DNA of 61,231 nt from a virus (Duplodnaviria > Caudoviricetes): IMG/VR virus record IMGVR_UViG_3300030202_002195, positions 1-61,231 of that record. One strand, given 5' to 3'. The notes beneath the pieces were generated by a model. That model searched no databases, was not told where the DNA came from, and saw only the letters and a program-made list of their open reading frames with translations. This document shows, one piece after another, positions 254 through 61,231 of the stretch. The translations under genes were made by a program, and so were the position numbers. Numbering within the stretch: the first letter of the stretch is position 1; every line of letters begins with the position of its first letter.

Positions 254-329
254 GTTTGTAACTGACAGAGGGTTGCCCCTCTATATTCTATCTCTTTAAC
301 TTACACTTTGACTTGGTGTAGCCATTTGC
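254..329. repeat. 76-bp sequence identical to contig end 61156-61231
   Basis: Direct comparison; identity begins 4 bp before GTAACTGAC and the sequences differ to the left. Confidence 0.95.
258..282 (-). repeat. Hammerhead substrate-like site 1 (hairpin + GUC^AGUUAC)
   Basis: Minus strand AGAGGG-GCAA-CCCUCU-GUC-AGUUAC. Confidence 0.9.
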
Positions 330-404
330 AGTAAGTTGTTTAGGAGATGAACAAGCTACCATAGTGGTAGCAATAACAAGTGTTGCAATAATTAACTTCT
401 TCAT
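288..404 (-). CDS. Small lipoprotein (38 aa), not in ORF track
   Basis: MKKLIIATLVIATTMVAC-SSPKQLTANGYTKSKCKLKR: basic N-terminus, hydrophobic core, lipobox MVAC. Confidence 0.75.
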   Translation of the reverse strand: MKKLIIATLVIATTMVACSSPKQLTANGYTKSKCKLKR

Positions 405-405
405 C

Positions 406-711
406 TTAAAAAGGTAATAGTGAGTTAATAAATTCAGTTCCGTTGATTCTCATATCAATCAATCTCTTCAAAGGTATCGTTCGGTATGCACCCTTCTTTG
501 TATCCCATACAATAGCATTCTTTCTTGCTCTTGCATCATACTTCAAAGTGCCACCCTTCAAACCTTTGGTTACACCAGTGCGACACACCATCTTTCGAGT
601 CGTGCCATCTTTCTTGATGAATGTAACCGAGAAGAATCTTCCCTTACTTAAATCAATCTCCTTCTGTAATCTGTCGCACCACACATCTTGTGGTATCATA
701 ACTTTGTTCAT
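406..711 (-). CDS. WYL_2/DUF2693-like SH3 (Sm-like) barrel protein
   Basis: FSVTFIKKDGTTRKM...VWDTKKGAYRTIPL pattern; start reassigned to ATG 711, 25 nt after site 2. Confidence 0.7.
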   Translation of the reverse strand: MNKVMIPQDVWCDRLQKEIDLSKGRFFSVTFIKKDGTTRKMVCRTGVTKGLKGGTLKYDARARKNAIVWDTKKGAYRTIPLKRLIDMRINGTEFINSLLPF

Positions 712-730
712 AATTTTGTAGTTTAAATTT

Positions 731-756
731 GTAACTGACACCAATCATAAGATTGG
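731..756 (-). repeat. Hammerhead substrate-like site 2
   Basis: CCAAUC-UUAU-GAUUGG-U-GUC-AGUUAC. Confidence 0.9.
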
Positions 757-957
757 CTCATTGAAATCTTCTCCGTAGTATTCTTGGGTACAGAATCTAC
801 TGCATAGTTTGTTCCCTCGTTCCACTTGCTCATCCGTAAGTTCTTCATCACACCACTTGCAAGTTGGATTAGATACCTCATCTCTTGAGTCATCCGTAGG
901 TCGGTGGTAAAGTGAATCAATAAAACTTGCGAATCCTTGTAAATCATTATCATTCAT
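745..957 (-). CDS. Small zinc-finger protein (70 aa)
   Basis: CKWC...CSRFC; start reassigned to ATG 957. Confidence 0.7.
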   Translation of the reverse strand: MNDNDLQGFASFIDSLYHRPTDDSRDEVSNPTCKWCDEELTDEQVERGNKLCSRFCTQEYYGEDFNEPIL

Positions 958-975
958 AGTAGTAAATTTTAGTTT

Positions 976-999
976 GTAACTGACCCCTCCAAAGGAGGG
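976..999 (-). repeat. Hammerhead substrate-like site 3
   Basis: CCCUCC-UUU-GGAGGG-GUC-AGUUAC. Confidence 0.9.
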
Positions 1000-1007
1000 T
1001 AAATGCA

Positions 1008-1442
1008 TTACACATTTGATGGTTGAAGGATGTACTCACAAGCTACCTCGTGATACTCGATAGTACCCTCGAAAGTTCTGATTCTGTTCTTATCTACTGA
1101 AATGTATCCAGTATCTTCAGAATCATCCCCTTGCCAATACATAATCCCTTCTGCGTAGATAGGAGAATCCTTACTACACTCGATTAAAAACTTGATGAAG
1201 TGTTTTATCCATCCGATACCTTCGTATGTCTTCTCGGTTTCATTCCAAGAAAACAAACCTTTGTTGTCGTGGTTACTGACTTCAAAGTTACACCATATCG
1301 AAGGAAATTCTCTTCTTTGGTCATTGTAGCCATATTGACTATCGTGCCTTTCTCGAGTCATTTCATTCCAAGTATCTAATTCAATTCTTGTGAATGGTCT
1401 GCTTGTTGCAAGTACACCATTCCATTCGGTATTATAACCCAT
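1008..1442 (-). CDS. Early hypothetical protein (144 aa)
   Basis: ORF after site 4; MGYNTEW...WC...EKTY...GIMYWQGDDSED resembles a common phage early protein pattern. Confidence 0.85.
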   Translation of the reverse strand: MGYNTEWNGVLATSRPFTRIELDTWNEMTRERHDSQYGYNDQRREFPSIWCNFEVSNHDNKGLFSWNETEKTYEGIGWIKHFIKFLIECSKDSPIYAEGIMYWQGDDSEDTGYISVDKNRIRTFEGTIEYHEVACEYILQPSNV

Positions 1443-1464
1443 AATTTTGTAGTTTTAATTATTC

Positions 1465-1490
1465 GTAACTGACAGAGGGCATTGCCCTCT
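1465..1490 (-). repeat. Hammerhead substrate-like site 4
   Basis: AGAGGGC-AAU-GCCCUCU-GUC-AGUUAC. Confidence 0.9.
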
Positions 1491-1494
1491 TACT

Positions 1495-1809
1495 TTACAC
1501 TAAATCTCCATTCTCATCAAAATCTCCCATAACAAATTCTGTTGGCATTGTGAAAAACTTGATTGCATCTAAATCTTTAGATGGTATTTCATCAAACATC
1601 AAGTTACCAATCAGAGTCATTGTATTAAATTCAAGATTCAAAGGTGATAGTATCTCTCTCAATTTAGAGTAGTATTTCAATGATAATCTACACCACACAT
1701 CTTCCTTATCATATTCGGTAGGATTGTCATATGCATTGATGCGTTCTTTGTACTCATTTCTGTACTCGGTTACAAGAGATAATACTCTTGCTTTCATTCC
1801 TATTGTCAT
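1495..1809 (-). CDS. Early hypothetical protein (104 aa)
   Basis: ORF 24 nt after site 5. Confidence 0.8.
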   Translation of the reverse strand: MTIGMKARVLSLVTEYRNEYKERINAYDNPTEYDKEDVWCRLSLKYYSKLREILSPLNLEFNTMTLIGNLMFDEIPSKDLDAIKFFTMPTEFVMGDFDENGDLV

Positions 1810-1827
1810 TGTAGTAAAAATTGGTTT

Positions 1828-1856
1828 GTAACTGACAAGAGTCTATTTAGACTCTT
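1828..1856 (-). repeat. Hammerhead substrate-like site 5
   Basis: AAGAGUCU-AAAU-AGACUCUU-GUC-AGUUAC. Confidence 0.9.
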
Positions 1857-1947
1857 CTTCACTTTCAATGATAAACTTCTCCATAAAGTAGAAGAATGTA
1901 CCGAAGATTGAAAGCATAATGATAATTTCAAGTATGTAAGCTAACAT
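1843..1947 (-). CDS. Single-pass membrane peptide (34 aa), not in ORF track
   Basis: MLAYILEIIIMLSIFGTFFYFMEKFIIESEEESK; ATG 25 nt after site 6, stop inside the site 5 hairpin. Confidence 0.75.
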   Translation of the reverse strand: MLAYILEIIIMLSIFGTFFYFMEKFIIESEEESK

Positions 1948-1966
1948 AATTTTGTAGTGTTTAGTT

Positions 1967-1995
1967 GTAACTGACAAGAGGTTATTCAACCTCTT
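1967..1995 (-). repeat. Hammerhead substrate-like site 6
   Basis: AAGAGGUU-GAAU-AACCUCUU-GUC-AGUUAC. Confidence 0.9.
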
Positions 1996-2182
1996 CATCT
2001 TTGGGTAGTTTGTCCCAATTTACTGCATCATCAATCGATTGAATAAGCAGTTGTTGATTCTCTTCTGTTATGAGCATTTCTGCTTGAAATACACTATCTA
2101 CATTAGAGAAGGTAGTGTGTTTTTGCTCTCCAATGAAAGTATGTAATGTACCTTCATTATCAATAAAATAACTTGTAATCAT
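1982..2182 (-). CDS. Early hypothetical protein (66 aa, acidic)
   Basis: ORF 26 nt after site 7. Confidence 0.8.
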   Translation of the reverse strand: MITSYFIDNEGTLHTFIGEQKHTTFSNVDSVFQAEMLITEENQQLLIQSIDDAVNWDKLPKDEEVE

Positions 2183-2202
2183 TGTAGTAAATTTAATTGT
2201 TT

Positions 2203-2231
2203 GTAACTAACACTCTCTGATTACAGAGAGT
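2203..2231 (-). repeat. Hammerhead substrate-like site 7 (GUU variant)
   Basis: ACUCUCUG-UAAU-CAGAGAGU-GUU-AGUUAC. Confidence 0.85.
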
Positions 2232-2457
2232 TATAAAGGTTAATAATGTATTCTAATTCTTGTTCAAGGTTAATCAAGTCATCCTCTGTTACTCGTTCGC
2301 CCAGCAACCATCTGTTCTCGTGTAATGCCCAAGTGACATCTCCGATATGATTCTCTACTTGTTTCTTGTTCCTTGTTAAGAATGATTTCTTAGATGAGGT
2401 AGTCTTGTATTTAGCAATCTCCTCTTGATAAAAATCTTTGTAAGTGTATTCTAACAT
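2221..2457 (-). CDS. First early protein (78 aa), hypothetical
   Basis: ORF 24 nt after the ribozyme cis cleavage site. Confidence 0.8.
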   Translation of the reverse strand: MLEYTYKDFYQEEIAKYKTTSSKKSFLTRNKKQVENHIGDVTWALHENRWLLGERVTEDDLINLEQELEYIINLYNSL

Positions 2458-2475
2458 TGTAGTAAATATTGGTTT

Positions 2476-2587
2476 GTAACTGACACAGATACATTCTCAA
2501 GTGTATCTGTCGTTTGTGTTTCGACCATCTAAGGTAGGTGCTTGAACACCCTCCAGAGTTTATACTCTCTGGCATCATCAGAGTTAC
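2476..2587 (-). ncRNA. Type I hammerhead ribozyme with expanded stem II; contains cis site 8
   Basis: GUAACU(2587-2582)-CUGAUGA(2581-2575)-U-GCCA...UGGU-C-GAAAC(2522-2518)...hairpin-GUC(2484-2482)^AGUUAC(2481-2476); 6-bp stem I, complete core. Confidence 0.85.
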
Positions 2588-2781
2588 CTAAGCTACTTAA
2601 GGTAGCTAATCTGTACTACATTTCCCATTGACTGATGTTTCTGGTGTGCTTCTATCTGATTCGATTGCTCTGTATCTTCCTATGCTCTATCGCCCACCAA
2701 ACTAAGAGATTTCACATCTGTATCATTGTTTGCTACGATAGTAGGTAAGATAGCCATTAGGCATCACCATAATTGTCAGTC

Positions 2782-2793
2782 TGTCAAAGAACA
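2782..2793 (-). promoter_or_regulatory. boxA-like antitermination element
   Basis: TGTTCTTTGACA shortly after the predicted start; compare rrn boxA TGCTCTTTAACA. Confidence 0.6.
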
Positions 2794-2823
2794 TATCCCA
2801 AACTCGTTCGTTCAAGAATTGTT

Positions 2824-2853
2824 CAAAAATAGTCTAAATATCTTACATATCAA
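2824..2853 (-). promoter_or_regulatory. Host sigma-type early promoter
   Basis: TTG(2853-2851)-N19-TATTTTTG(2831-2824), matching the Flavobacterium/Bacteroidota -33/-7 consensus. Confidence 0.75.
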
Positions 2854-3081
2854 CTATAAAATTAAAAAAGTTTTATGCGAAGTTTACTCTTTGTTCAAAT
2901 CTCTGTCAGTCAATGAGTTACAAGTCAAATTTGGGTGTAAAATGTATGGAATTTGGGTGATTGCTGGGTGATTATACGACACCTCTGTGTCTGTAAAACG
3001 TCAGATTTTGTCTGACCTTCCCTCCAAACGTTCACTTTTGGGTCGTATCAGAGGGGAAACCCTACCCAAGTGAGAGAGTTT

Positions 3082-3142
3082 ACCGAGTCAAACCGAGTAA
3101 CCGAGTAACACATAGGTAGTAGCTTCGGCAGATACTACCGAG
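3082..3142 (+). repeat. Four ACCGAG(T) direct repeats plus GGTAGTA/TACTACC hairpin
   Basis: ACCGAG at 3082, 3092, 3100, 3137 in the non-coding divergent region. Confidence 0.7.
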
Positions 3143-3294
3143 CCACATCAGATGCCATAGCAAAAAGCTAAAATGTTTGTAGTGTGCGAGTCAAACATCG
3201 ACCCCCCCTCAAAAAAAAAATCAGTTTCCGTACAGACGATGTGTGTGTATACGCTATAATAACCCTCAACCCCCAGGTATCTAATATTTTTTAT

Positions 3295-3302
3295 TACCTT
3301 TG
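3295..3302 (+). promoter_or_regulatory. -7 promoter element
   Basis: TACCTTTG just upstream of ATG 3316. Confidence 0.55.
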
Positions 3303-3315
3303 TAAAAAAGAAAAC

Positions 3316-3522
3316 ATGAAGAGTTACAAGAAACAAATAGATATGGGTCTTTCAATCGAGGGAGGTAGACTAATCAACGAGAGACCAGATGGTATGACAG
3401 GCATTCAGCTTGCTGCCAAAATGAAAAGAGCTCGCAAGCGTATGGATAAAGTTGATATGATTGCAGAAGGAAATGAGATGGCTCGTATGCGTAGAGATAT
3501 GCGAGACATGTTTAAGAAATAA
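3316..3522 (+). CDS. Small basic Met-rich protein (68 aa)
   Basis: ATG after promoter, followed by terminator. Confidence 0.65.
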   Translation: MKSYKKQIDMGLSIEGGRLINERPDGMTGIQLAAKMKRARKRMDKVDMIAEGNEMARMRRDMRDMFKK

Positions 3523-3567
3523 AGAAAACAATTTTCCCAATTGTTCTGTTTTGATTAGTTGTTGAAT

Positions 3568-3602
3568 AGGGGGTCTTCGTTCTGAAGATCCTCTTTTCTT
3601 TT
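3568..3602 (+). terminator. Intrinsic terminator
   Basis: GGGGTCTTC-GTTCT-GAAGATCCT then T-rich tract. Confidence 0.65.
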
Positions 3603-3614
3603 ATATATGTTAAA

Positions 3615-3790
3615 GTTCGACATTCTTCTGTCGATTTATTTTTAGTTCGACAGGATATAACTCTTTAGTTTTCAGTTACTTATATTATTTTATGTCGAAA
3701 TGTCGAAAAAGATACCAAAATATTACACAGTAAAAACAACTTACGATAGTATATATATATTATATGTAAGAGTTTACTAAACTCGACATA
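3615..3790. other. Origin-like iteron element A
   Basis: Repeated TGTCGAA/TTCGACA in both orientations around AT-rich DNA; TGTCGAAATGTCGAAA (3693-3708) also occurs at 55101-55116. Confidence 0.5.
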
Positions 3791-3820
3791 CCAACATTTA
3801 AGTATATATTATTTTTTTTA

Positions 3821-3828
3821 TATATTTG
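3821..3828 (+). promoter_or_regulatory. -7 promoter element for groEL operon
   Basis: TATATTTG upstream of ATG 3860. Confidence 0.6.
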
Positions 3829-3859
3829 CCTCATACTAATTCAATTAAATTAAACCAAA

Positions 3860-18928: not shown

Positions 18929-21155
18929 TCTATATACAACATTAAAAGATGTTGTGCCAAAGGCTGTCGTTTCTAACAAAAATAGAGCGAAGTCTTGGAG
19001 GTATGGTTATGACCCGAAATATGATATTGTAGTAATATCTAAAAGCGGTGAGATCGGTGAGGTTATTAATGTAAATGGACTGAAGATTGCTTTACCTAAA
19101 GCGCCTAAAGAGGTGCACAAAATATCTTCTAAAAAACAAGAACAATACTGGGAGCCTTTTGAATATCCAAAAGAACTTTCAAGAATAAAATCTATATTCC
19201 AGTGGCACGAAACCCCAGATCAATTCAAGTCTAAATGGGTAGACTATATAGAACAAGAGTTTGATCGCAGGGAGTATGGTTTCTGGTTTATGAACAATGG
19301 CGTACCAACTTACATCACTGGTACGCATTATATGTATTTGCAATGGACTAAAATTGATGTGGGTCATCCTGACTTCAGAGAGGCGAATAGAATATTCTAC
19401 ATATTCTGGGAAGCCTGTAAGGCTGATAAAAGAAGTTTCGGAATGTGTTATCTTAAGATAAGGCGTTCTGGTTTTTCATTTATGAGTTCAAGTGAGGGTG
19501 TTAATATGGCTACTATTACTAAAGATGCCAGAATAGGAATACTTTCTAAAACAGGTTCAGATGCAAAAAAAATGTTCACAGACAAAGTTGTCCCAATATC
19601 AAACAACTATCCGTTCTTCTTTAAACCGATACAAGACGGTATGGACAAACCGAAAACAGAATTGGCATATCGTGTCCCAGCTTCAAAAATTACAAAGAAG
19701 AATATGTACGAGATCGAAGAGGCTGAGTTAGAGGGTTTGGATACAACTATAGACTGGAAGAACACTGGAGATAACAGTTATGACGGTGAAAAACTTAAAC
19801 TACTACTTCACGATGAAAGTGGTAAATGGGAGAAGCCTGATAATATATTAAACAACTGGAGGGTAACTAAGACATGTTTGAGGTTAGGTAGAAAGGTTAT
19901 AGGAAAGTGTATGATGGGTTCTACATCAAACGCTTTAGATAAAGGAGGTAATAACTTCAAGTCTTTATATATGGACTCTGATCCAACTAAACGTAACTCC
20001 AACGGACAAACTAAAAGCGGTCTGTATAATTTATTTATTCCAATGGAATGGAATATGGAAGGATTTATAGATAGGTATGGTGCTCCTGTTCTCAAGACAC
20101 CTGAAGAGCCTGTGATTGGTATTGATGACGAATACATAGACATGGGGGCTATTGATTACTGGGAGAATGAAGTAGAGTCTTTAGCTCAAGACCCTGACGC
20201 TCTTAATGAATATTATAGACAGTTCCCAAGAACAGAGTCACACGCTTTTAGAGATGAAAGTAAACAATCTATATTCAACCTAACAAAGATATACCAACAG
20301 ATAGATTACAATGATTCTATAAACCTTAAACACCATTTGACACGTGGTTCTTTTCATTGGAAAGATGGAATCAAAGACTCCGAGGTTATATGGACACCAA
20401 GGAAAGACGGTAGGTTCTTAGTTAGCTGGACTCCTGAAAAAGGAATGAGAAACAGAGTTCAAACAAGAAACGGTATTAAGTATCCAGGGAATGAGCATCT
20501 TGGTTCTTTTGGCTGTGACTCTTATGATATATCTGGAGTTGTTGTTGGTAAGGGTTCAAATGGAGCTTTACACGGAATGACTAAGTTTAATATGGATAAC
20601 GCACCAAGTAATCACTTTTTCTTAGAATATATTGCAAGACCACAGACTGCAGAAATATTTTTTGAGGAAGTATTGATGGCTTTAGTTTTTTACGGTATGC
20701 CTATACTGTGTGAAAACAACAAGCCTCGTTTACTCTATCATTTAAAAAATAGAGGGTATAGAGGATACTCTATGAACAGACCAGATAAAACATATAACAA
20801 ACTTTCTAAAACAGAAAGAGAATTAGGAGGTATACCTAACACATCGGAAGATGTAAAGCAGTCCCACGCAGCCGCAATAGAATCCTACATAGAGAAGCAT
20901 GTGGGGATGGATTTTACAGAAGACTATAGGGATGCTGATGATATGGGCGAGATGTATTTTAACAGCACTTTACAAGATTGGGCTAAGTTTGATATAAGCA
21001 ATAGAACTAAATTCGATGCAGCTATTAGTTCGGGTCTTGCGATAATGGCGAATCAAAAACACTTATATACACCTTCTAAACAAAAATCAAAAATAAGTAT
21101 TAACTTTGCAAAATACGATAATAAGTCGAGCATTAGTAGAATAATTAATAGATGA
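18906..21155 (+). CDS. terL: Terminase large subunit
   Basis: KIRRSGFS Walker A variant, LLHDESGK Walker B, GCDSYD nuclease; start (TTG) uncertain. Confidence 0.9.
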   Translation: MQSQDQNNLYTTLKDVVPKAVVSNKNRAKSWRYGYDPKYDIVVISKSGEIGEVINVNGLKIALPKAPKEVHKISSKKQEQYWEPFEYPKELSRIKSIFQWHETPDQFKSKWVDYIEQEFDRREYGFWFMNNGVPTYITGTHYMYLQWTKIDVGHPDFREANRIFYIFWEACKADKRSFGMCYLKIRRSGFSFMSSSEGVNMATITKDARIGILSKTGSDAKKMFTDKVVPISNNYPFFFKPIQDGMDKPKTELAYRVPASKITKKNMYEIEEAELEGLDTTIDWKNTGDNSYDGEKLKLLLHDESGKWEKPDNILNNWRVTKTCLRLGRKVIGKCMMGSTSNALDKGGNNFKSLYMDSDPTKRNSNGQTKSGLYNLFIPMEWNMEGFIDRYGAPVLKTPEEPVIGIDDEYIDMGAIDYWENEVESLAQDPDALNEYYRQFPRTESHAFRDESKQSIFNLTKIYQQIDYNDSINLKHHLTRGSFHWKDGIKDSEVIWTPRKDGRFLVSWTPEKGMRNRVQTRNGIKYPGNEHLGSFGCDSYDISGVVVGKGSNGALHGMTKFNMDNAPSNHFFLEYIARPQTAEIFFEEVLMALVFYGMPILCENNKPRLLYHLKNRGYRGYSMNRPDKTYNKLSKTERELGGIPNTSEDVKQSHAAAIESYIEKHVGMDFTEDYRDADDMGEMYFNSTLQDWAKFDISNRTKFDAAISSGLAIMANQKHLYTPSKQKSKISINFAKYDNKSSISRIINR

Positions 21156-40267: not shown

Positions 40268-43200
40268 ATGGAAGAACAAGTATTAAAAGATTTAATAGCA
40301 ACATCTGAATCTTTAAATTATAACTGGGATGAAATAATGCCGAAGTTTCCAGAGCTTGAAGGTGTTGATCTTCAAGTATTAAAAGATTATGTAGAAACAG
40401 CAAAAGCGTATGACTACAATTACGAGGTTATTAATCCTAAATTTCCTGAGCTAAACATAAAAAAAAAAGACGATTCTCTACCCACTGGGGAAGAGGAAGT
40501 TATGGTATCAGATACTACAGTGGTGGAAGAACCTGGCTCATCGGAGCCTTCCGCTCCAGAAACTGATGAGGTTGTAGTAGAAGACACAGAAGTCCTTGAA
40601 ACTCCTGAGCCTGTCGTGCAGGAGTTAGATGATCCTTTTGAAAACTCAATGCAGGTTATCAACTTAGACTTGATGACCAAGAATGAAGAAGCTGTTGTTC
40701 CTAAGCTGGAGTATCACTTTGGAGACTATGGTTTTAAGTTTGAACAAACTGGCCTTGGTGACAGGGTAAAAGCTATCGCACCAAACGGTGAAGAGATAGT
40801 TGTCGAAACAGACAATATTACAGATAAAAAAGATACAAGAGAAGGCGAGAAACTTAAGGAGTTTATAAGAGCAAATAAGCTTGACGGATCTCAAGAGCTT
40901 GACTTAGAGAATAGGTATAAGCAGAACGAAAGAAAATTCTTTACTGATGAAGAAGTAAAGATTGAGTTAGCTAACATGAATGACTTAGCTAAGATTCAAG
41001 CAGATCAAATCAAACAATATGTAGCTAACAAGACTGAGTTCGAAGTATTGAATGCTCAGTATGAATCTATGGATCAAGCTCAGATAGATGATAACCCTGA
41101 GTTTATGAAACTATGGAGTGAGCAGAAGGATGCTTTAGACAAACAACTTGCTCAACTCAAAAACCAAGACAATATTTTAAAGCTACAAGGAGTTGAGTTG
41201 GATAGATCTGTAGGTGCTTATTATGAAATGAAAGCTCAGACTGGTACTAAGATGGGAGCTTTTTACAATGCCTTACTGCAGGGTTATTCAAACATGGCTT
41301 CAGGTCTTGCTGACGTAGTAATAGATGTGTCCACTTATTTAGCTCCTTTGAAAGCTCAGATGGGTGAAGAAAACTACAACGCTGAAGTTGTAAAGAAAGC
41401 CATTGAGAAAGGGTTTATAAAAGGAGAAGAAGAGAATGTACTTCAAAATGTAGAGAGATATATAGAGTTGTTAGAAGGTGATCAGCTGGATGAAATAAAC
41501 AGCGAGATACTTGACGATAACAGAAAACTATTAAAGGCAGGTGATGATGAGATTGTAGAGCAACCCTACTCTCAATTTGCTGGTGCTCTCAATGAAGATA
41601 TGGGGATACTCCAAGCAATACGAGAGGGACTCGTGACTACTGTGGGTGATGATGAAACAACCAGAGAGTACAGCGATTTAAAAAAACAATCTTTTTGGGG
41701 TGGTGCTTTGCTTGGTTTAACCGAATCATTACCAGCTATGGTTGGTGGTATAGGTGGTTGGGCACAACGTACAGCACAGATGTATGCCCAGGTTTCAGAT
41801 GCTCTTACAAAAGAGATGGAGGATGACCCTACATTTGCTGATGTAAGTGAAGCAGAAAAGGCTGCACTAAAACTTCCGTTAGGAGCTGTAGTAGCTGGAT
41901 TAGAAGCTGTTGGTTTAAGAAATGTGATGGCGCAAACAGGTGTTGCCCAAACAGTTTTAATGCGTGTTCTTCGTAAAAAAAGCGCTGATATAGCTGGTCG
42001 ATCTTTTAACGAGGTTGTTTCCAGAGAGATAAACAACATGATTGCTAAAGGAGCCTTGGTGGTTACAGCTGCTGGTCTTGCTGAATTTGAAACAGGAGCT
42101 GCTCAAGAGCTTGCTGATATTGGAGCAAAAGAATTATTTAACTACATAAAAGAAGATGAATACTTTAAGACTCCAGAAAATATATTGTCTGAAGTTTTAT
42201 ACGCTGGAGCTCAAGAAGCAGTGGGTGGTTTTATATTGGGTGTACCAGGAGCTATATCTACAGCTGCTCGTAAGTATGACTTTACTAAGTTAGACGAAGG
42301 TGTCTTTGAAATGTTTGAGGATATAAGCAAAGACCCTGCATACAAAGATGCTTATGTGCAAATAATAAAGCAAGCAATCCTTGATGGAGATATAACAAAA
42401 CAGGAAGGTCAATCACAGTTAGACGCATACAATGAAGTGGTTAATGTGATGAACCAAATACCTGTAGACTTCTCAACAGAACAAAAGAAGAAAGCTTTGG
42501 GTATATTATTAAGAACTCAAAAGCTTGAACAAGAGATAGAGGGTAAGGACCCTCGATTGGTTAAGAGACAAAAACAAGAGATTGAAGATCTTAACCAACA
42601 GTTAGATAACATTTTATACGAAGAAACAGATGCCAGTACGGAGCAAAGCACAGTGGAGGAAACTGTCCCAGTCGAATCCGAGACTACTGAAGAAGTGGTT
42701 GATGGAGTACCCGACCAAGTTCAGCGACCTACCAGAGAAGGTGACACCCAAACCGAAGGGACTCAATCCCAGGAGACGGAAGAGAAAATAGTAGACGGAA
42801 AAGTAGGTGATACATTTACAAGCAATAGAGGTACAGAAGTTATTGTTAAGAAAACTAAAAACCTTACAATAACTGAGAGTCAAACCGAAACAGTTAATCC
42901 TGCTGATCAAAGAAATTTTGGATTAAAAAAGACTACTAAAATTTATGAGCAGATTTACGGTGATAGAATGAATGGAACCGAGCCTGTTCCAAAGCTTAAC
43001 ACCTACCAAAATGAGTCAGTAGTAACTGGCAGAAAAACAACGCAAGTAACAGAAGAAACAAAAGACCTTCAGCTTATGGTTGAGGGTGAAGTAACTGAAG
43101 ATACTGATGTATCCACAGATCAGGATGGACAGGTATTTGAGCAAGTCGATGAGGTTGTATCTATTAATAGAGCAAGTAAGCCACCTAAAAGAACTAACCA

Positions 43201-46200
43201 ATTTAAAAACTTTGTACAGAAGAAAGCAAGGCGTGCTGGAAAAGCATTAGCTCGTATTGCTCCTGATGTAAAGATAGTTCTTCACGAAAATGCAGAGGAC
43301 TACTTCAATGTAACTAACAGTAGAGGTAAAGGAACATTTGTAGATAATACTGTCCACATAAACCTTGAGTCTGCTGACAGAACTACAGTAGCTCACGAGG
43401 CTTTTCACGCAATACTATTAAGCAAGTTAAAGACAGATGCTGCTGCTGGTCGTGTTACTAAAAATATGATGACTGCCATCTCAAAGTCTTTGAACAAAGA
43501 TTCTGAGCTAAAGAAAAGCATAGATGCTTTTGCTTCTAATTATGATGAGAATATACAGAACGAAGAGAAGCTGGCTCAGATTATAGGAGAGATAGCGGCT
43601 GGCTACAAAGAGCTTGACGCTGGATCTAAGAGCACTTTGAGAAGGTGGATAGATAGGATAGCCAAAGGACTTGGTATAAAGGTAGAGGAGTTTACACAGA
43701 CCGAGCAAGATGTTGTGAATCTTCTTAACACCATAGCTAAAAAGGTAACTACAGGACAAGAGATTCAAGAAGGTGAGGTAGACTTAATTGAAAAGCTTCA
43801 GGATGATGACCTTCTAAATACACCTCCTTATGAAGGCGGAGAAACATTAACAGTAAATCCAGAAGGTCCAAAAGATCCAGAGCCAAGAGATCAAAAAAAT
43901 ATTTACAGTAAGATAAATTTTGCAACAAATCTTCCTGTGGTTTCTTTGCAGGAATTTGTAAACAAGGTTGGAGGTAATCTTTTTGCTGTCACTTCTGATG
44001 CCACTGGTTTAGGCTTTGACTCTCAAGGAGACAGAATAGATGGTGGGTTTGGATACTCTGCTATAACTGACAACTTAAATAATGGTATTGGGTTTGCTTC
44101 ATTGAACCCAACATTTGCTAAAATGACACTGTCTAAAATAGCTAAAAGATTTAAAGCTGGCACGAAGATAGGTGTAATGATAATGGTTCAGAGTCCTAAC
44201 GCAACTCTTGGAAACTACTACGGAGGAAAATATTTAGGAAGAGCATTGGGTCAAATAAAAAAATCCAACCCAAATGAATATCAGGTAGTAGTAGATGGAG
44301 TAAGAGAGTTGCTTGAGAACAACAAGTCTGTAAAAAAAGAACTTGACAAGAATACAGATTTTAATGCTGAAACAATATTAGACTTGGTTTCTAATCCTGA
44401 AAACTACACTGAGGCAGAGTTTGGTAAAGAGTGGATTAAGGATACTAACTTTGAGATAAGAAGAATACTTTTAAACTCGTTGTTTATTAACAGTCAAGAA
44501 ACAAGAACAACTAAACAAACTAACCCAGCAAAACTAAAACTAAAAGAAGCTGGCTTCACCATGAGAGATTTCTTGATGGAGTACGGTGATAAGCAGTTGT
44601 TAGGTGAGAACAACCTTAAAGAAAACAAAGGAGGATTTGTTGTTGGAGGTTTTGAAATGATTATTCCAGAAGATATTGACAAAGCTTTAGCTGACATAGA
44701 TAACAAAGGAATAGTTCACCCGCAGTTTAATGGTAAACTTCCAAGCACAGGTAATAACTTTTTGTTTGATGGTTTATACCCAATACAAGAAAACTTTGTT
44801 GAGTACGCTAAAAAGGAAACAACTATATCTAAAGAGCAACAAGAAAGTGCCGATGCAGCTGTTAGAAAAATGTTTAAGGAGGATAAGTTTTATAAGGATG
44901 AGTTTCTTTCTGGACCTAAGAAGGTTGCTAAAAGTAAAAGAGGATACGCTAATTTAAAGACTGGTCCTAAAATTAGATTTAAGGCAGAGAGTCCTCAATT
45001 CTTGGAGGAAAGAACACCTGGTATAACAGCAAGTGTAGCAAAAGGATTGGGCTTATCTTTGGATAAAGACATACCAACTAAAGAAGCTTTTGAAAAACCA
45101 GTTGCTCGTGAACAAAAAGGTGATGCTCTTACATTCCAGGAGATGGAAACGCTTTATGATGTAGAGCAGAGAGAGCAAAAGGATATGCCAAAGCTTACTC
45201 AAAAGCAGGTAGATGAAGCTCTTCAAACAGATAAGGTTGCAAGAAGAATTATTGCAGAAGGCAACCAGCCTAAGCAAGGTGAGAATGTAGGTGTAAGACT
45301 TAATCTTAATGTGTTTAAGAATACAGGGCTGCCAATACAAGCGATACACCAGGGGACTAAAACAGATGCTTACAAGAGAGTTGATGGTGTCTCTGGTAAC
45401 TTTAGAGGCAAGGTAATAAACTATGCCCCAGCAGTTACATTGAAAGATGTATACTTGAATACACATCAAAAGGCTGTATATCAAGTTAAGAACAAAATAA
45501 AAAATAAGTTTCCATTAGCATCTGTTGATGGTCTATACCAAGATATACCATACGATAAGCAAGACTTAACAGGTACAGAGTTGAGGTTCAATCCATTCAA
45601 CACTATGTTGTTTGAAACACTTGATGGAACTCCAGTAAGAAGCGTAGAGGAAGCTACTATATATGGAACAAGAGTTTTTGCAAGAGGTAAAATAGAATAC
45701 TTTACAGAAGAGAATACTCCTCCACCTTATGAACCAACAAAGACTGAGAAGAGAGAACAGAAGGATGTTAAGTTTAAGATTCAAAAGAAAAGAATATATA
45801 AAGAAACACCAAGAGCATTAACTATATTAACATCAGGTTACGGTGGTAAGTTTATCAACCTGCCAATGTCTCAGATAACAATATCAGAAGCTCCTCCAAA
45901 GCGTGGATACTACGGACAAGATATTGGCGAAAGTGGTGAAATGGTTAGAATAACTATGCCACAGTGGTTGTTTAGTAGAAATACTGAGCTGGAAGAAACA
46001 GGCGGTTTTGAGTTAGAAACAAAACCAAAGAAGCGTGAACAAAGAGATGTGTTCAAAAAAGATATGTCTGCTACTGAAATAATAATAGCTGGTAGAGATA
46101 ATAACTTTAGTGATGCATCAATAAAAGAATACCTTACTAAGATAAGAAAGCTGAAGGTAAAAGAAGTAAATGAGTTGATGGCTATAAAAGCCGATCTCTT

Positions 46201-49200
46201 TTCTAAGATGCCTCCAAGCTTTGGTGATGTAAAGGGTGGTGCTAAAGTAGGTGCTAAGTTGTATTCAAAGATACTAAAGCTTAGAGCTAAGTTAGAAAAG
46301 GATAAGACATTAAGTAAGAATGAAGTAATGGATCGTCTTATTGAGTTTTTACAAGCTCAACCTGAATACATAGCTGAGGGGAAGAAGGGTGGTCTTACTG
46401 TTCAACAAGCTAAGATGGAGACCGAACTTCAAAGAGAGACAGGTATACGACCAACTAAAAATATTGGAGCCAATCTTCGTGCAGCTCGTCAGCTTATAAG
46501 AAACACTAATAGAACTAAAAAGAATCTTCAAGCTATCAAAAGAGAGTTGAGAAACTTTATCCGCAAATCTCTACCTAAAGACTCTTATACTAAAAGTGAG
46601 GTAATAAACATGGTTCGTAAGATTACAGATGCTGATGCCACTAACATAGATAGGTTGATGGGTGAGGTTGAGACCTTTGTAATGAAGAGAGCTATCCGTG
46701 ATTTGGATTCTAAAATATCTAAGATATTAGATTTAAAACAGTACACCAAGAGGTCAGGCAAAAGAAAAGCTGCAAAGGGTGTAGATGTAACAGTTCTTGA
46801 AAGACTTACATTCATTTCAGATTTTTACGCAGACATTAAAAATGCTCAGACCGCAGACTCTTTAGGTAAACTATACGAGTCACTACTTAGTGAGTTTAAT
46901 AAGTTAGCTAAAAAGCCTGAACCAACTGACGCTGAGATTCAAAAGATGGTAGACTTAGAGATACTTATGTCTTTAACTAATGCTGAGGTAATGAAAGATC
47001 AGATTGATGCTAACAGGATAGACGCTTTAGATAAAGCGGCATCTAACCTTGCGGACCTTGTAGCTTTTGGTAAGACAAATCTCAAAGATCAAATCAATGA
47101 GGCTCGTCAAAAGTATCTGAATGATTTTGCTATAGCTTATCAAGCTATAAGAAATGACAAAGACAGGTTAGATATGAATGATCCTGAAACTAAAGAGATG
47201 CTTCGAGATCAAGAAATATTAGACGCTCAAGACCCAGATGTTAAAGGTGTGCAGAAAAGATTAAAGAAATGGTATGGAGGTCTTAGAACAATGCTTGGAA
47301 GACCATTCAACGCCTTGATGGATCTTAGCACATTGATGAATCATATTGATGCAATGCCAGGGGATTTGTTTGGAGGGGAACTTCAGACTCTTGTTACTGA
47401 TAGAATAGACGCTTCAAACAGAGAGTTTAAAGGTCGTATTATGTTGGTGGAAAAAGCTGTAACACTAAAGCTTCAAGATATATTCGGAAAGAAATGGAAG
47501 TCGTTAGTGCCTAAGCTAAGAGAACCTAAACCCACTGGTATATTTATTGAAAATAGAGCTGGTAGAAAAGAGTTGATACTGAGTCAAAATCAAATGTACT
47601 ATTATTACAATCAGTACAAAGACCCTGCTAACGCAGGCAAGTTTGAGAAAACGTTTGGTGATAACTATGTTGAAATAATGGAGCAGATTACTGAACAGCT
47701 TGATCCTAAAGTAAAAGAGTTTGCAGACTGGCAGGTCAACGAGTTCTTCCCATCATTATATAACCACTACAACGAAGTGTATAAAAAAATATACCGAACC
47801 AATATGCCTTGGAATCAGTTCTACGCAGGTATGTTATACACTCAAGGTCAAAAGGAAGCGGCTGGGGTTCTTAATATGTTAGGTGAAGGTAACCCATACC
47901 AGACATCTGTGGGTACTGGGTCTACAATAGCAAGACAAGCTAATAACAATCCAATATTAGAAATGGATGGTACAGACGCTCTGTTTACCTACTTAAGAAA
48001 TATGGAATACTTCTCTGCTTATGCAGAAAGTATAAGAGATATTAATAAAATATTTACCAACGATATTATACGTGGAAACATAAAACGATTGTACGGTAAA
48101 GATATAATGGGTAAAATAGATACTATAATAGAGCGTGTAGCATCTAAAGGTTTGCAGTCTCAACAGTCAGCTATATTTATTAACTGGATGAACAATGCCT
48201 TTATCTTGTCAAGATTAGGATTAAGCCCACTAATCCACGTTAAACAGATGACTTCTGTATTTACATACGCTAATGATATTGGTGTAACTAATTGGTTGAA
48301 GTATGGAGCTGGACTTGCTAACATTCCAAAGCTTGTAAGAACCTGGAAAGAGATGGGTAATAATTCTGTTTATATGCAAGACAGAAAGTACGAAAGCATT
48401 GTTAAAGTTTTAGAAAGCTATAGCGATACTGCAATGCAAGAGTTTATTCCAACACCAGTTAAGGATAAGATAGTTAACATGATGATGTTCTTCATTAAGA
48501 CTGGTGATAGAAATGCAATTATGTTAGGTGGTATGCCAAACTACTTGTACTACAAAGACCAAGCTTTGAAAGCAGGTAAGAGTGAGCAAGAGGCTATTGA
48601 CGAAGCTATCATTAAGTTTGAAAGAGATACTAAGAGAACTCAGCAGTCATCTGATATACAAGATAGAGATGTACTACAAACTGGTGATCCTTTGTATCGT
48701 GCTTTGAATATGTTCTTGACAACACCTAAACAGTATATGCGTAAAGAAATACAAGCGTTTACAAACCTCAACCGAAAGCTTATGGCTTGGGATAAAACTG
48801 CTGGAAAAGGAACTCGTGGAGAAAACTTTAGAACATTAGCTATGTACCACGTGTTTATGCCTGTTCTTTTCCAATGGGTAACTAACGGTATGCCTGGATT
48901 ACTTGCTGAATGGGAAGACGAGGATGAAGCAGATTTATTAAGAGCGGCTGTTATAGGAAACTTAAACGCACTATTTATTATAGGAGATGTGTTTAATGTT
49001 ATTGGGGACGTTGCCACTGGTAAACCTTGGGCTGGTAATCCAACAAGGAACATGCCTATAGTTGCAGTTGCGGCTAATATAGCTAAGCAATATGACAGGA
49101 TTAATAAGATAAAAGATCCTGAAAAGAAAGCGGAAGCTACCAAGAAGATGTTTTACGAAATTTTAACTTTAGGTGGAATACCTGCCAGTAATATAGATAA

Positions 49201-49507: not shown

Positions 49508-49824
49508 AAGTTCTTGTCAAAGTTTTCTCTTTCAACTTCAAGTTTGTAATATAGGAATGCGTGGAACCCATTGATGTGAGAGTCAGTGGGAAAGAAATAC
49601 TTCCAGCCTTTGGACATGCCTCTGTTTATATAATAACAAAAAGCCAACCCAATCTTACCAGTATTCTTTTTAAATCTAACCACTGCTGTGTGGTCTGATG
49701 TTGGTATAACTTCTTCAACATGAAATGTTTCTTTGTTTGAATTACCTTCCCTATCTGTTCTTGAATATCTCAAGGCCAGCTCAGCTGCAAACTCGTTCAG
49801 CTCTATTGCTATCTCTTTTTTCAT
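49504..49824 (-). CDS. Hypothetical protein (106 aa)
   Basis: Last ORF of the minus-strand operon. Confidence 0.7.
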   Translation of the reverse strand: MKKEIAIELNEFAAELALRYSRTDREGNSNKETFHVEEVIPTSDHTAVVRFKKNTGKIGLAFCYYINRGMSKGWKYFFPTDSHINGFHAFLYYKLEVERENFDKNF

Positions 49825-59431: not shown

Positions 59432-59463
59432 CAAATATATAATATAATTTGTTTATATCCAAA
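59432..59463 (-). promoter_or_regulatory. Host-type promoter
   Basis: TTTG-N20-TATATTTG. Confidence 0.7.
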
Positions 59464-59795: not shown

Positions 59796-59823
59796 GTAAC
59801 TGACAAGGGAAGTTATTCTTCCC
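59796..59823 (-). repeat. Hammerhead substrate-like site 9
   Basis: GGGAAG-AAUAA-CUUCCC-UU-GUC-AGUUAC. Confidence 0.9.
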
Positions 59824-60107: not shown

Positions 60108-60133
60108 GTAACTGACAGAGGGATACACCCTCT
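60108..60133 (-). repeat. Hammerhead substrate-like site 10
   Basis: AGAGGG-UGUAU-CCCUCU-GUC-AGUUAC. Confidence 0.9.
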
Positions 60134-60480: not shown

Positions 60481-60506
60481 GTAACTGACAGAGGAAATTA
60501 ATCCTC
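60481..60506 (-). repeat. Hammerhead substrate-like site 11
   Basis: GAGGA-UUAAUU-UCCUC-U-GUC-AGUUAC. Confidence 0.9.
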
Positions 60507-60747: not shown

Positions 60748-60851
60748 GTAACTGACAAGGTTGGTGTGAAGCACATTGGCTATTGCCTTTGGGGATGATT
60801 TTTACGAGGGGCTGACTCCCTATTACCCTCCTACTTACCACACCTAACCTT
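60748..60851 (-). ncRNA. Site 12 with ~95-nt branched RNA in place of the simple hairpin
   Basis: AAGGUU-A-GGUGUG...CACACC-AACCUU-GUC-AGUUAC enclosing GAGGG/CCCUC and GGC/GCC hairpins. Confidence 0.6.
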
Positions 60852-61139: not shown

Positions 61140-61159
61140 AATCGTAGTTTTAATTGTTT

Positions 61160-61184
61160 GTAACTGACAGAGGGTTGCCCCTCT
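61160..61184 (-). repeat. Hammerhead substrate-like site 13 (same sequence as site 1)
   Basis: AGAGGG-GCAA-CCCUCU-GUC-AGUUAC. Confidence 0.9.
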
Positions 61185-61231
61185 ATATTCTATCTCTTTA
61201 ACTTACACTTTGACTTGGTGTAGCCATTTGC

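What the first reader, a model, noticed from the sequence alone, without database searches (positions are those of the whole stretch)
258..2587. One hammerhead ribozyme and an array of matching cleavage sites: candidate ribozyme-based processing of a polycistronic phage mRNA
Seen in sequence: the early-operon leader has a full hammerhead core on the minus strand (GUAACU-CUGAUGA-stem II-GAAAC...GUC^AGUUAC, 2587-2476). Its substrate half, GUC-AGUUAC, recurs with no catalytic core upstream of nearly every early gene. + strand GTAACTGAC starts at 258, 731, 976, 1465, 1828, 1967, 2203 (GUU variant) and 2476 (cis), and across the contig junction at 59796, 60108, 60481, 60748 and 61160. The invariant bases are exactly those the ribozyme would read: AGUUAC pairs with its GUAACU arm (stem I) and GU pairs with AC of GAAAC (stem III). 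The only variant changes the cleaved base C to U, still allowed by the NUH rule. Established: hammerheads cleave after NUH and can be split into enzyme and substrate strands; T7 cuts its early polycistron with host RNase III. Inference: this phage does the same with its own catalytic RNA, which self-cleaves once and then acts in trans or at long range on about 11 other sites. I know of no described natural system of one ribozyme with many mRNA sites, but could not search the literature.
Basis: partly seen in the sequence, partly recalled or inferred. Interest (0 to 1): 0.97.

Follow-up and report, generated by a model that had tools for sequence, protein, structure and literature searches.

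The report
One hammerhead, twelve coreless cleavage sites
A marine phage carries one hammerhead-like ribozyme in the leader of its early operon and twelve further copies of only the ribozyme's target half in front of early genes, which would be the first natural small ribozyme that cuts many sites in trans if experiments confirm it.

Summary
GUCAGUUAC lies on the coding (minus) strand before 13 early genes: 12 exact copies plus one GUU variant. In 10 of the 13, a variable hairpin directly abuts the motif. Only the leader copy has GUAACU-CUGAUGA...GAAAC upstream.

Rfam finds no hammerhead in the window.
- Related GroEL-encoding podophages carry hammerheads at the same place. Some have one in the early leader (type III or type I). 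Others have complete type-I hammerheads before successive early genes, with the same layout: stem III hairpin, GUC, constant arm, A-rich spacer, AUG.
- The window's sites look like the 3' halves of those ribozymes.
- Across the clade, the only position of the 9-mer that varies is the unpaired cleavage base (C or U).
- The leader core is complete. It has an extra U after A9, which one relative's ordinary hammerhead shares. Two covarying hairpins are inserted in stem II, and a 7-10 nt linker sits in stem III.

I put about 0.75 on the leader being a self-cleaving hammerhead and about 0.5 on the coreless sites being cut by it. No cleavage data exist. The helices that define the hammerhead are invariant, so covariation cannot test them. 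I found no natural trans-cleaving hammerhead in the literature I searched.

The parts
2821..2831 (-). Bacteroidota-type -7 promoter box (TAnnTTTG, TATTTTTG at 2831-2824) upstream of the leader; inferred start of the early leftward transcript near 2815
   Evidence: pattern scan; strong conservation among relatives begins just downstream. The consensus is recalled, and the transcription start is inferred.
2608..2815 (-). 5' domain of the conserved noncoding leader, of unknown role. It holds GACUGAC (within 2771-2785), complementary to GUCAGUU, and GCACACCAGA (2640-2649), complementary to the CUGAUGAUGC core.
   Evidence: (8 sequences, 88% mean column identity; compensatory pairs at alignment columns 71/140 and 72/139)
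2591..2607 (-). Hairpin P_a (AGCUAC/GUAGCU) just 5' of the ribozyme arm
   Evidence: two compensatory pairs
2582..2587 (-). Stem I 5' strand GUAACU (enzyme arm)
   Evidence: invariant in 8 of 8 leaders
2573..2581 (-). Core CUGAUGA (2581-2575), extra U (2574), G10.1 (2573)
   Evidence: relative L006 has the same extra U; PMC3705267 passage on an extra nucleotide at this position
2524..2572 (-). Stem II domain: hairpins P_b (2572-2553), P_c (2551-2536) and P_d (2535-2524). P_d plus the G2573-C2523 pair corresponds to stem II of relatives; P_b and P_c are inserted.
   Evidence: 5 compensatory pairs, all in these three hairpins
2518..2523 (-). C11.1 (2523), G12 A13 A14 (2522-2520), A15.1 (2519), C15.2 (2518)
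   Evidence: invariant
2511..2517 (-). Linker ACAAACG between C15.2 and the stem III hairpin; 7 nt here, 10 nt in 3 of 8 relatives
2476..2510 (-). Cis substrate: hairpin P_e (2510-2485), G16.2 U16.1 C17 (2484-2482), AGUUAC (2481-2476). Predicted cut between 2482 and 2481; first early gene ATG at 2457.
2203..2231 (-). Coreless site, GUU variant: hairpin 2231-2212, GUUAGUUAC 2211-2203, ATG at 2182
1967..1995 (-). Coreless site: hairpin 1995-1976, motif 1975-1967, ATG at 1947
1828..1856 (-). Coreless site: hairpin 1856-1837, motif 1836-1828, ATG at 1809
1465..1490 (-). Coreless site: hairpin 1490-1474, motif 1473-1465, ATG at 1442
976..999 (-). Coreless site: hairpin 999-985, motif 984-976, ATG at 957
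731..757 (-). Coreless site: hairpin 757-740, motif 739-731, ATG at 711
258..282 (-). Coreless site: hairpin 282-267, motif 266-258, ATG at 238
61160..61184 (-). Coreless site: hairpin 61184-61169, motif 61168-61160, ATG at 61139. It lies in the 77-nt stretch identical to 253-329.
60748..60756 (-). Coreless site without an adjacent hairpin; ATG at 60728
60481..60506 (-). Coreless site: hairpin 60506-60491 (gap 1), motif 60489-60481, ATG at 60463
60108..60133 (-). Coreless site: hairpin 60133-60117, motif 60116-60108, ATG at 60088
59796..59823 (-). Last coreless site of the array: hairpin 59823-59807 (gap 2), motif 59804-59796, ATG at 59777
59432..59439 (-). Host-type promoter (TTTG-N20-TATATTTG) just past the last motif-bearing gene; marks the end of the array

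Best explanation
The leftward early operon is transcribed from a host-type promoter near 2831 as one long RNA. That RNA begins with a conserved leader of about 335 nt. The 3' third of the leader is a type-I hammerhead: stem I GUAACU/AGUUAC, core CUGAUGA(U)G...C-GAAA, and cleavage after GUC at 2482/2481. It differs from ordinary hammerheads in two places. Two hairpins are inserted in stem II, and a flexible linker follows the first two pairs of stem III.

The 12 other sites are the substrate half alone: a hairpin standing in for stem III, then GU(C/U), then AGUUAC. They are most likely cut by the leader ribozyme, either after it has released itself or at long range within the same transcript. 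The enzyme would pair through 6 bp of stem I plus A15.1-U16.1 and C15.2-G16.2, stacked on the site's own hairpin.

The result would be monocistronic early mRNAs. Each would carry a 3' hairpin ending in a 2',3'-cyclic phosphate and a 5'-OH leader of 23-28 nt before the AUG.

Shown: the anatomy, the conservation and the homology of position with hammerheads in relatives. Inferred: transcription as one unit, self-cleavage and trans cleavage.
For: 1. Relatives carry hammerheads at the same place.
- Rfam Hammerhead_3 scores 36.3 bits (E 2e-6) in the early leader of Flavobacterium phage elemoA.
- 7 of 25 related records match at E <= 1, the best at 41.5, 36.3 and 35.2 bits; none reaches the 48.5-bit cut-off.
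- L013, L028 and L010 have complete type-I hammerheads before successive early genes, laid out as hairpin-GUC-constant arm-A-rich spacer-AUG.
- L006, L011 and L021 have one complete type-I hammerhead before the first early gene.

2. A relaxed type-I descriptor hits the leader once in each genome of the window's clade. In 1.98 Mb of other fetched phage loci it hits only 4 times, all in one multi-hammerhead contig, L222.

3. Among 54 intergenic-like unique site contexts in the clade, 42 have GUC and 12 have GUU. None shows any other single change. The only variable base is the one that does not pair with the enzyme.

4. The hairpin abuts G16.2 with no gap in 49 of 59 contexts that passed the filter, 5 of them likely false, and in 10 of 13 window sites. 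The cis site has the same anatomy.

5. The extra U after A9 is also in L006's otherwise ordinary hammerhead. A review passage says a U at this position raised the trans-cleaving rate 3-4 fold in another hammerhead (PMC3705267).

6. The hammerhead-compatible structure is 100% paired in 7 distinct leaders, with 5 compensatory pairs.

7. 8 of 12 predicted enzyme-substrate dimers keep the full 6-bp stem I.

8. No phage RNA polymerase or sigma factor was found in 76 ORFs scanned. The sites carry no host-type promoter.
Against: - No Rfam hammerhead model matches the leader, even at E up to 10 with permissive filters. The same kind of search finds the elemoA ribozyme. RF00008 and RF00163 run over the whole record also miss the leader.
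- All 5 compensatory pairs lie in the inserted or stem II hairpins. Stem I, the 10.1-11.1 pair, the two stem III pairs and P_e never vary, so they say nothing for or against.
- The hammerhead-compatible fold is -25.7 kcal/mol against an MFE of -35.9. The MFE pairs CUGAU of the core with GUCAG of the site.
- RNAalifold prefers to pair the core with an upstream GCACAUCAGA, and the cis site with GACUGAC.
- I know of no hammerhead with a four-way junction at stem II. That statement is recalled, not searched.
- A 2-bp stem III in trans is weak.
- 4 of 12 predicted dimers lose stem I.
- One site (60748) has no adjacent hairpin.
- Only one clade shows the layout, and its arm and sites never vary, so there is no arm-site covariation.
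- Relatives' hammerheads are all below Rfam's curated cut-offs.
- No RNA data could be obtained.
Confidence: 0.5

Rival explanations
1. The leader hammerhead works only in cis, as in relatives with a single leader ribozyme. The 12 coreless sites do something else at the RNA level. They could be a shared 5'-UTR or translation-initiation module, or the target of a phage or host protein (an endoribonuclease or an RNA-binding regulator). In that reading their likeness to a hammerhead substrate is inherited from the leader site or from lost complete ribozymes.
For: A single cis leader hammerhead without downstream sites is a common state in relatives (L006, L011, L021; elemoA). Conservation runs past the pairing region into (A/G)A(A/C/U). 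The motif sits at a fixed 17-22 nt from the AUG. Other relatives have different constant intergenic elements that are not hammerhead-like: GUGUCGUUAACGACAC in MW202828 and GUCUAGYCGACUAGAC in L004. So intergenic repeats in this phage group need not be ribozyme parts.
Against: It does not explain several things: why G16.2 and U16.1 are invariant, why only H17 varies (0 other single changes in 54 contexts), why the hairpin abuts the G, or why conservation is complementary to the arm next to the only CUGAUGA...GAAAC element of the early arm. No candidate nuclease or RNA-binding protein emerged from Pfam or PHROGs scans. Most small early proteins have no match at all, so this is weak evidence.
Confidence: 0.27
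2. Each site is a terminator hairpin followed by a phage-specific promoter, like the promoter-stem-loop cassettes (PeSLs) of T4-type phages. The match to the leader arm would then be coincidental.
For: The hairpin-plus-conserved-box anatomy before each small early gene resembles PeSLs (PMC2839356 and PMC4122927; search listing and start of abstracts only). Genes and hairpins are shuffled at the motif between related genomes, as described for PeSLs. In relatives, a copy of the motif without a hairpin faces the rightward operon.
Against: The sites lack the host TTTG/TAnnTTTG promoter that is present at operon starts. No phage RNA polymerase or sigma factor was found, and none of the three largest proteins has a DFDxD-type motif. 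Spacing from the motif to the next conserved block (ACUAC) varies. Homologous positions in relatives hold complete hammerheads.
Confidence: 0.1
3. The coreless sites are inert remnants of once-complete hammerheads. They are kept alike by recombination between cassettes rather than by selection.
For: The same hairpin is joined to different downstream genes and vice versa, with breakpoints at the motif. The record's own ends repeat a site.
Against: Identity stops sharply at the motif borders, next to hairpins of unrelated sequence. Nine bases are too few to be homogenised by homologous exchange (inference). The motif is unchanged in genomes whose GroEL is only 76% identical in protein.
Confidence: 0.06

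Closest known systems
Clustered complete hammerheads flanking genes in prophage and phage transcripts (Perreault et al. 2011, PMC3088659; passages read)
   Same: Hammerhead cleavage is proposed to cut long phage transcripts into gene-length mRNAs. Relatives of this phage (L010, L013, L028) show exactly this arrangement.
   Different: There, every site carries its own full ribozyme. Here, 12 of 13 sites have no catalytic half.
HHphage of haloviruses HF1/HF2 (PMC3088659, passage)
   Same: A hammerhead sits 13 nt upstream of the first gene of an early polycistronic transcript, and the mapped 5' end is close to the cleavage site. The window's leader ribozyme sits before the first early gene in the same way.
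   Different: It is a single cis ribozyme with no repeated target sites, in an archaeal virus.
Discontinuous hammerhead in mammalian Clec2 3' UTRs (Martick et al. 2008; known to me from the passage and reference list of PMC6765202)
   Same: Enzyme and substrate halves are far apart in the primary sequence.
   Different: It has one enzyme half and one substrate half on the same mRNA, in a eukaryote, and is not a multi-site system.
RNase P RNA
   Same: A natural ribozyme that acts in trans on many substrates (PMC6765202, figure legend passage).
   Different: It is a large ribonucleoprotein with hydrolytic chemistry that recognises tRNA shape, not sequence. It is unrelated to hammerheads.
RNase III processing of the T7 early polycistronic mRNA (recalled, not looked up)
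   Same: Intergenic hairpins mark cuts that leave a stabilising 3' hairpin on each early mRNA.
   Different: It relies on a host protein enzyme that cuts double-stranded RNA.
PeSL promoter-stem-loop cassettes of T4-type phages (PMC2839356, PMC4122927; listing and start of abstracts only)
   Same: Repeated composite intergenic elements lie between small early genes and act as junctions for cassette shuffling.
   Different: PeSLs are DNA-level promoter-terminator units. No promoter consensus is present here.

Membership tests
Hammerhead ribozyme (leader element 2587-2476, minus strand) | Core nucleotides C3 U4 G5 A6 N7 G8 A9 and G12 A13 A14 | tested here: met
   CUGAUGA at 2581-2575 and GAAA at 2522-2519, invariant in 8 of 8 leaders. 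One extra U (2574) lies between A9 and G10.1. L006's hammerhead has it too, and a review passage reports it as tolerated.
Hammerhead ribozyme (leader element) | A15.1-U16.1 pair and a non-G nucleotide (H17) at the cleavage site | tested here: met
   A2519 pairs with U2483, and C2482 is H17. In the coreless sites H17 is C (42) or U (12).
Hammerhead ribozyme (leader element) | Stem I | tested here: met
   GUAACU (2587-2582) pairs with AGUUAC (2481-2476): 6 pairs, 100% paired in 7 distinct leaders. They never vary, so there is no covariation support. Pair probabilities are 0.24-0.58.
Hammerhead ribozyme (leader element) | Stem II starting with a 10.1-11.1 pair next to the core | tested here: inconclusive
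   G2573-C2523 can pair, and P_d (3 bp, one compensatory pair) continues the 3' strand. However, two hairpins (P_b, P_c; 4 compensatory pairs) are inserted after G10.1. I know of no described hammerhead with this junction (recalled).
Hammerhead ribozyme (leader element) | Stem III | tested here: inconclusive
   Two pairs (A-U, C-G) are followed by a 7-10 nt one-sided linker and then a 9-bp hairpin.
Hammerhead ribozyme (leader element) | Match to a curated covariance model (Rfam hammerhead families) | tested here: not met
   There were 0 hits at gathering score in the window and no hammerhead at E up to 10 in 2300-3000. RF00008 and RF00163 over the record miss the leader. The insertions may explain the miss (inference).
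Hammerhead ribozyme (leader element) | Site-specific self-cleavage giving 2',3'-cyclic phosphate and 5'-OH ends | not testable with these tools
PeSL-type promoter-terminator cassette | A promoter consensus for the host or a phage polymerase within the repeat | tested here: not met
   The sites have no TTTG/TAnnTTTG in the coding direction, while operon starts do. No phage polymerase or sigma factor was found.
Integron attC-like cassette sites (considered briefly) | A tyrosine recombinase plus long imperfect hairpins with paired core sites | tested here: not met
   No integrase family appears among the Pfam hits of 67 ORFs. The hairpins are only 15-26 nt long.

The most novel reading that the evidence does not exclude
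The leader is a true multiple-turnover RNA enzyme. After cutting itself free it cleaves a dozen enzyme-less sites, and in relatives also a site on the oppositely transcribed operon. That would make it the first natural small nucleolytic ribozyme acting in trans on many mRNA targets.

A bolder extension rests on the fact that hammerhead cleavage is reversible. The leader's own GUC>p end, tethered by the flexible linker, could be ligated onto the 5'-OH of each cleaved cistron. That would be a spliced-leader-like RNA rearrangement in a phage. Nothing here tests the extension.
Probability: 0.45. Interest if true: 0.95.

Novelty: new variant of a known kind. Interest (0 to 1): 0.86.

Why it matters
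[quoted passage not shown] An abstract says most natural hammerheads self-cleave rather than cut in trans (PMC6412130). My searches found no natural hammerhead with separate multiple targets.

If confirmed, this system would matter in three ways:
- It would show that evolution reached the enzyme/substrate split that laboratories engineered.
- It would suggest a route to that split. Relatives have complete hammerheads with identical arms at successive junctions, which would make the enzyme halves redundant and so open to loss.
- It would provide a compact natural design for cutting hairpin-flanked targets with only 6 + 2 base pairs.

It also indicates that a group of marine Bacteroidota podophages, including the cultured Elemovirus, may process early transcripts with hammerheads. 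Those hammerheads are not annotated in the records I read.

Tried and rejected
Rejected readings
- My first reading was a PeSL-like terminator plus phage promoter (about 60%), with the hammerhead under 5%. I dropped it after finding hammerheads in relatives, no promoter consensus at the sites and no phage polymerase.
- N4-like or crAss-like virion RNA polymerase promoters. The 3079-aa protein has no PDB sequence match at E <= 1 and only one Pfam hit, Phage_L5_gp82. None of the three largest proteins has a D[FYVIL]DxD motif. In phi14:2, early transcripts had no common upstream motif (bioRxiv 10.1101/2020.03.07.982082, passage).
- The leader as a coding region. ORF 2411-2578 is broken by stops in 6 of 6 correctly anchored relatives. 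The seventh, L155, was anchored at the wrong place by my script and is not counted.

Searches and analyses that added nothing
- nhmmer with the leader alignment found it only in the window's clade, not in the other GroEL loci.
- Counting UH+arm matches for every CUGANGA was too noisy with AT-rich arms.
Of 120 loci, 2 held a complete hammerhead of that kind.
- I meant to build a covariance model from the relatives' type-I hammerheads. MAFFT misaligned stem III, so I built no model.
- A type-III reading of the leader (cut after UGUA at about 2612) would give only a 3-bp stem III. L155's 26-nt insertion removes its stem I base, so I set it aside.
- I recalled that the complement of the motif resembles a stretch of Bacteroidota 16S rRNA. 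I could not test this: no host genome handle was available, and one search gave no control loci. I make no claim from it.
- Avoidance of the site inside genes cannot be shown, because only about 0.5 copies are expected by chance.

Not available
- No supplements of papers were opened. Supplementary alignments of PMC3088659 might already contain hammerheads from this phage group.

Full report
WHAT THE WINDOW IS
The window is a whole IMG/VR virus record of 61,231 bases. It is classed as linear and estimated 100% complete. It encodes a terminase, a portal and virion proteins, plus GroEL/GroES, Sak-type recombination proteins and a crAss muzzle-like domain. Its nearest named relatives are 60-kb podophages: MW202828.1 and the Flavobacterium Elemovirus phages. 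Small genes on the minus strand, at 2457 down to 8 and at 61139 down to 59499, form an early-looking arm that diverges from groEL.

THE OBSERVATION
GTAACTGAC occurs exactly 13 times, always on the + strand, and GTAACTAAC occurs at 2203. Thirteen of these sites are intergenic. Read on the coding strand, each is GU(C/U)AGUUAC followed by an A-rich spacer, with the AUG 17-22 nt further on. The fourteenth (4895) lies antisense inside groEL. A hairpin of unrelated sequence ends directly at the G in 10 of 13 sites, leaves a gap of 1 or 2 nt in two, and is missing at 60748. Only the site at 2476 has GUAACU-CUGAUGA...GAAAC upstream. The record's last 77 nt equal 253-329, so the two halves of the array do not meet in a clean circle.

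FIRST TESTS WENT AGAINST A HAMMERHEAD
Rfam gave no hit at gathering score in the whole window. It gave no hammerhead at E up to 10 in 2300-3000. I therefore first favoured terminator-plus-promoter cassettes.

THE LEADER IS A CONSERVED STRUCTURED RNA
Close relatives were found through GroEL and through leader words: L002, L003, L064 and L153-L160. They keep the same motif 11-15 times each. They also keep a leader of about 335 nt at 88% mean column identity, although GroEL is only 76% identical in protein.

The apparent ORF 2411-2578 is broken by stops in 6 of 6 correctly anchored relatives. RNAalifold finds 93 pairs, 9 of them with compensatory changes. A host-type -7 box (TATTTTTG, 2831-2824) precedes the leader. 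Similar boxes stand before the rightward genes and at 59439, just past the last motif-bearing gene. The Bacteroidota consensus used here is recalled.

THE TURNING POINT: RELATIVES CARRY HAMMERHEADS AT THIS PLACE
- The early leader of Flavobacterium phage elemoA matches Hammerhead_3 over the full model, at 36.3 bits and E 2e-6. This also serves as a positive control for the kind of search that failed on the window.
- Over 25 related records, 7 match RF00008 at E <= 1. The best scores are 41.5, 36.3 and 35.2 bits, and none is above the curated 48.5. The window's best is 14.6 bits, inside a gene at 56780. RF00163 is insensitive here.
- By eye and by pattern, L013, L028 and L010 carry complete type-I hammerheads before successive early genes. 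The layout is arm-CUGAUGA-stem II-GAAAC-stem III hairpin-GUC-arm', then an A-rich spacer and the AUG. Within a genome most copies share the same arm: AAUACU in L013 and L028; in L010, GGUUAA in 2 of 3 copies and GAUUAU in the third. They match RAGATH-1-hammerhead at 23.7 and 27.3 bits, below its cut-off. Their hammerhead fold is the MFE in 4 of 6.
- L006, L011 and L021 have a single complete type-I hammerhead before the first early gene and no further sites.
- A relaxed type-I descriptor requires a 6-nt arm, CUGANGA, an optional base, G...C-GAAA, a 15.2-16.2 pair, UH and the complementary arm. It hits the leader once per genome in the window's clade and hits these relatives. In 1.98 Mb of other fetched phage loci it hits 4 times, all in one contig (L222) that evidently holds four real hammerheads. 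That contig had been fetched with a hammerhead word, so it is not an unbiased control.

RE-READING THE LEADER ELEMENT
On the minus strand the element runs as follows:
- GUAACU, 2587-2582
- CUGAUGA, 2581-2575
- extra U, 2574
- G10.1, 2573
- P_b, an A, P_c and P_d, 2572-2524
- C11.1, 2523
- GAAA, then C15.2, 2522-2518
- linker ACAAACG, 2517-2511
- hairpin P_e, 2510-2485
- GUC, 2484-2482
- AGUUAC, 2481-2476

Every core nucleotide is present. The extra U is also in L006's ordinary hammerhead. A review passage states that a U at this position raised the trans-cleaving rate 3-4 fold in the CChMVd hammerhead (PMC3705267).

Stem II can be read as the G-C pair plus P_d, with P_b and P_c inserted after G10.1. 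Natural hammerheads with stem II of one or two pairs are on record (PMC3088659, passage).

On the 8-leader alignment this structure is 100% paired and has 5 compensatory pairs. All 5 lie in P_b, P_c and P_d. Stem I, the 10.1-11.1 pair, the two stem III pairs and P_e never vary.

Thermodynamics does not favour the hammerhead fold: -25.7 against -35.9 kcal/mol. Two upstream leader segments can pair with the core and with the cis site. These alternatives could be regulatory or could simply be the true fold.

THE CORELESS SITES BEHAVE LIKE SUBSTRATES
In the clade, 54 intergenic-like unique contexts carry GUC (42) or GUU (12), and none shows any other single change. The 5 two-mismatch contexts that passed my filter look intragenic. 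By inspection, the same downstream gene has C in one genome and U in another at least four times. So the one base that does not pair with the enzyme is the one that drifts.

The hairpin's abutment on G16.2 mirrors the cis site. This is what coaxial stacking on a 2-bp stem III would need (inference). The 7-10 nt linker in the cis copy is the only thing that distinguishes 'cis' from 'trans' geometry.

Eight of 12 predicted enzyme-substrate dimers keep all six stem I pairs, with binding energies of -3.5 to -11.7 kcal/mol.

Hairpins and downstream genes are recombined at the motif between genomes. This fits any repeated element and does not discriminate between the models.

HOW THE LAYOUT COULD ARISE (INFERENCE)
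In genomes like L013 and L028, every junction has a full ribozyme with the same arms. Any enzyme half could then serve any site. Enzyme halves would become redundant and could be lost everywhere except in the leader, which in this clade alone carries extra domains.

WHAT REMAINS OPEN
- No cleavage has been observed. RNA run data were not available.
- The layout is known from one clade with invariant arm and sites.
- Relatives with other, non-hammerhead intergenic repeats exist: MW202828 and L004.
- I put about 0.75 on a self-cleaving leader hammerhead and about 0.5 on cleavage of the coreless sites by it.

LITERATURE
Clustered complete hammerheads in prophage transcripts, and a halovirus hammerhead before the first early gene, are known (PMC3088659, passages). 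A 2019 review treats small nucleolytic ribozymes as cis-acting and cites the discontinuous Clec2 hammerhead as having spurred a search for trans-cleaving ones (PMC6765202, passages). Searches found no natural multi-target trans hammerhead. Subscription papers and supplements were not covered.

Noticed in passing
window 61155-61231 and 253-329: The last 77 nt of the record repeat 253-329 exactly, so the same hairpin and site precede two different genes (8-238 and 60858-61139). This may be an assembly join at a repeated cassette border, a population variant or a real duplication. The record is classed as linear.
   Followed up: partly
window 2608-2815 (minus strand): The 5' two-thirds of the leader is as conserved as the ribozyme part and has its own covarying helix (alignment columns 64-81 with 123-146). 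It contains segments complementary to the ribozyme core (2640-2649) and to the cis site (within 2771-2785). Its role is unknown; it may be an on/off switch or a scaffold.
   Followed up: partly
L161 (MT497017.1) 19083-19139, minus strand: The cultured Flavobacterium phage vB_FspP_elemoA_7-9A has an unannotated type-III hammerhead candidate (36.3 bits, all core bases) at the end of its early leader. The match ends 13 nt before the first early ATG (19069), and the predicted cut lies about 65 nt upstream of it.
   Followed up: yes
L010 528-919, L013 964-1876, L028 2447-3276 (minus strands); L006 near 8094, L011 near 8088, L021 near 5931: Uncultured relatives carry one to three complete type-I hammerheads before early genes. 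Within a genome most copies share the same stem I: all copies seen in L013 and L028, and 2 of 3 in L010.
   Followed up: yes
L222 (IMG/VR contig), minus strand, four places: A contig whose relatedness I did not check, fetched by a 14-mer, holds four complete type-I hammerhead candidates with four different arms.
   Followed up: no
window 2903-2923 (+); L002 7349, L154 4958, L158 253 (+): Relatives have an exact GUCAGUUAC without a hairpin facing the rightward (groEL-side) operon, about 100 nt upstream of the leader promoter. In the window this copy is interrupted (GTCAGTCAATGAGTTAC).
   Followed up: partly
window about 2900-3850: About 0.9 kb between the divergent promoters and groEL has only short ORFs and repeated GGGTG(A/T) words (2933, 2955, 2966). 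It may be an origin or another noncoding region.
   Followed up: no
clade loci, all sites: Gene cassettes are shuffled at the motif: one hairpin is joined to up to three different downstream genes, and one downstream gene is preceded by four different hairpins.
   Followed up: partly
L001 (MW202828.1) 44500-50000; L004 and L005, upstream of groEL: Other relatives have different constant palindromic intergenic elements 20-30 nt before early ATGs (GTGTCGTTAACGACAC; GTCTAGYCGACTAGAC), with no hammerhead found. Their function is unknown.
   Followed up: no
window 40268-49507 (+): A 3079-aa protein lies at the end of the structural module, where crAss-like and N4-like phages place a virion RNA polymerase. 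It has no DFDxD-type motif, no PDB sequence match and only a Phage_L5_gp82 Pfam hit.
   Followed up: partly
window 56780-56819 (minus strand): A weak Hammerhead_3 match (14.6 bits, E 0.12) lies inside a gene. It is probably chance.
   Followed up: no
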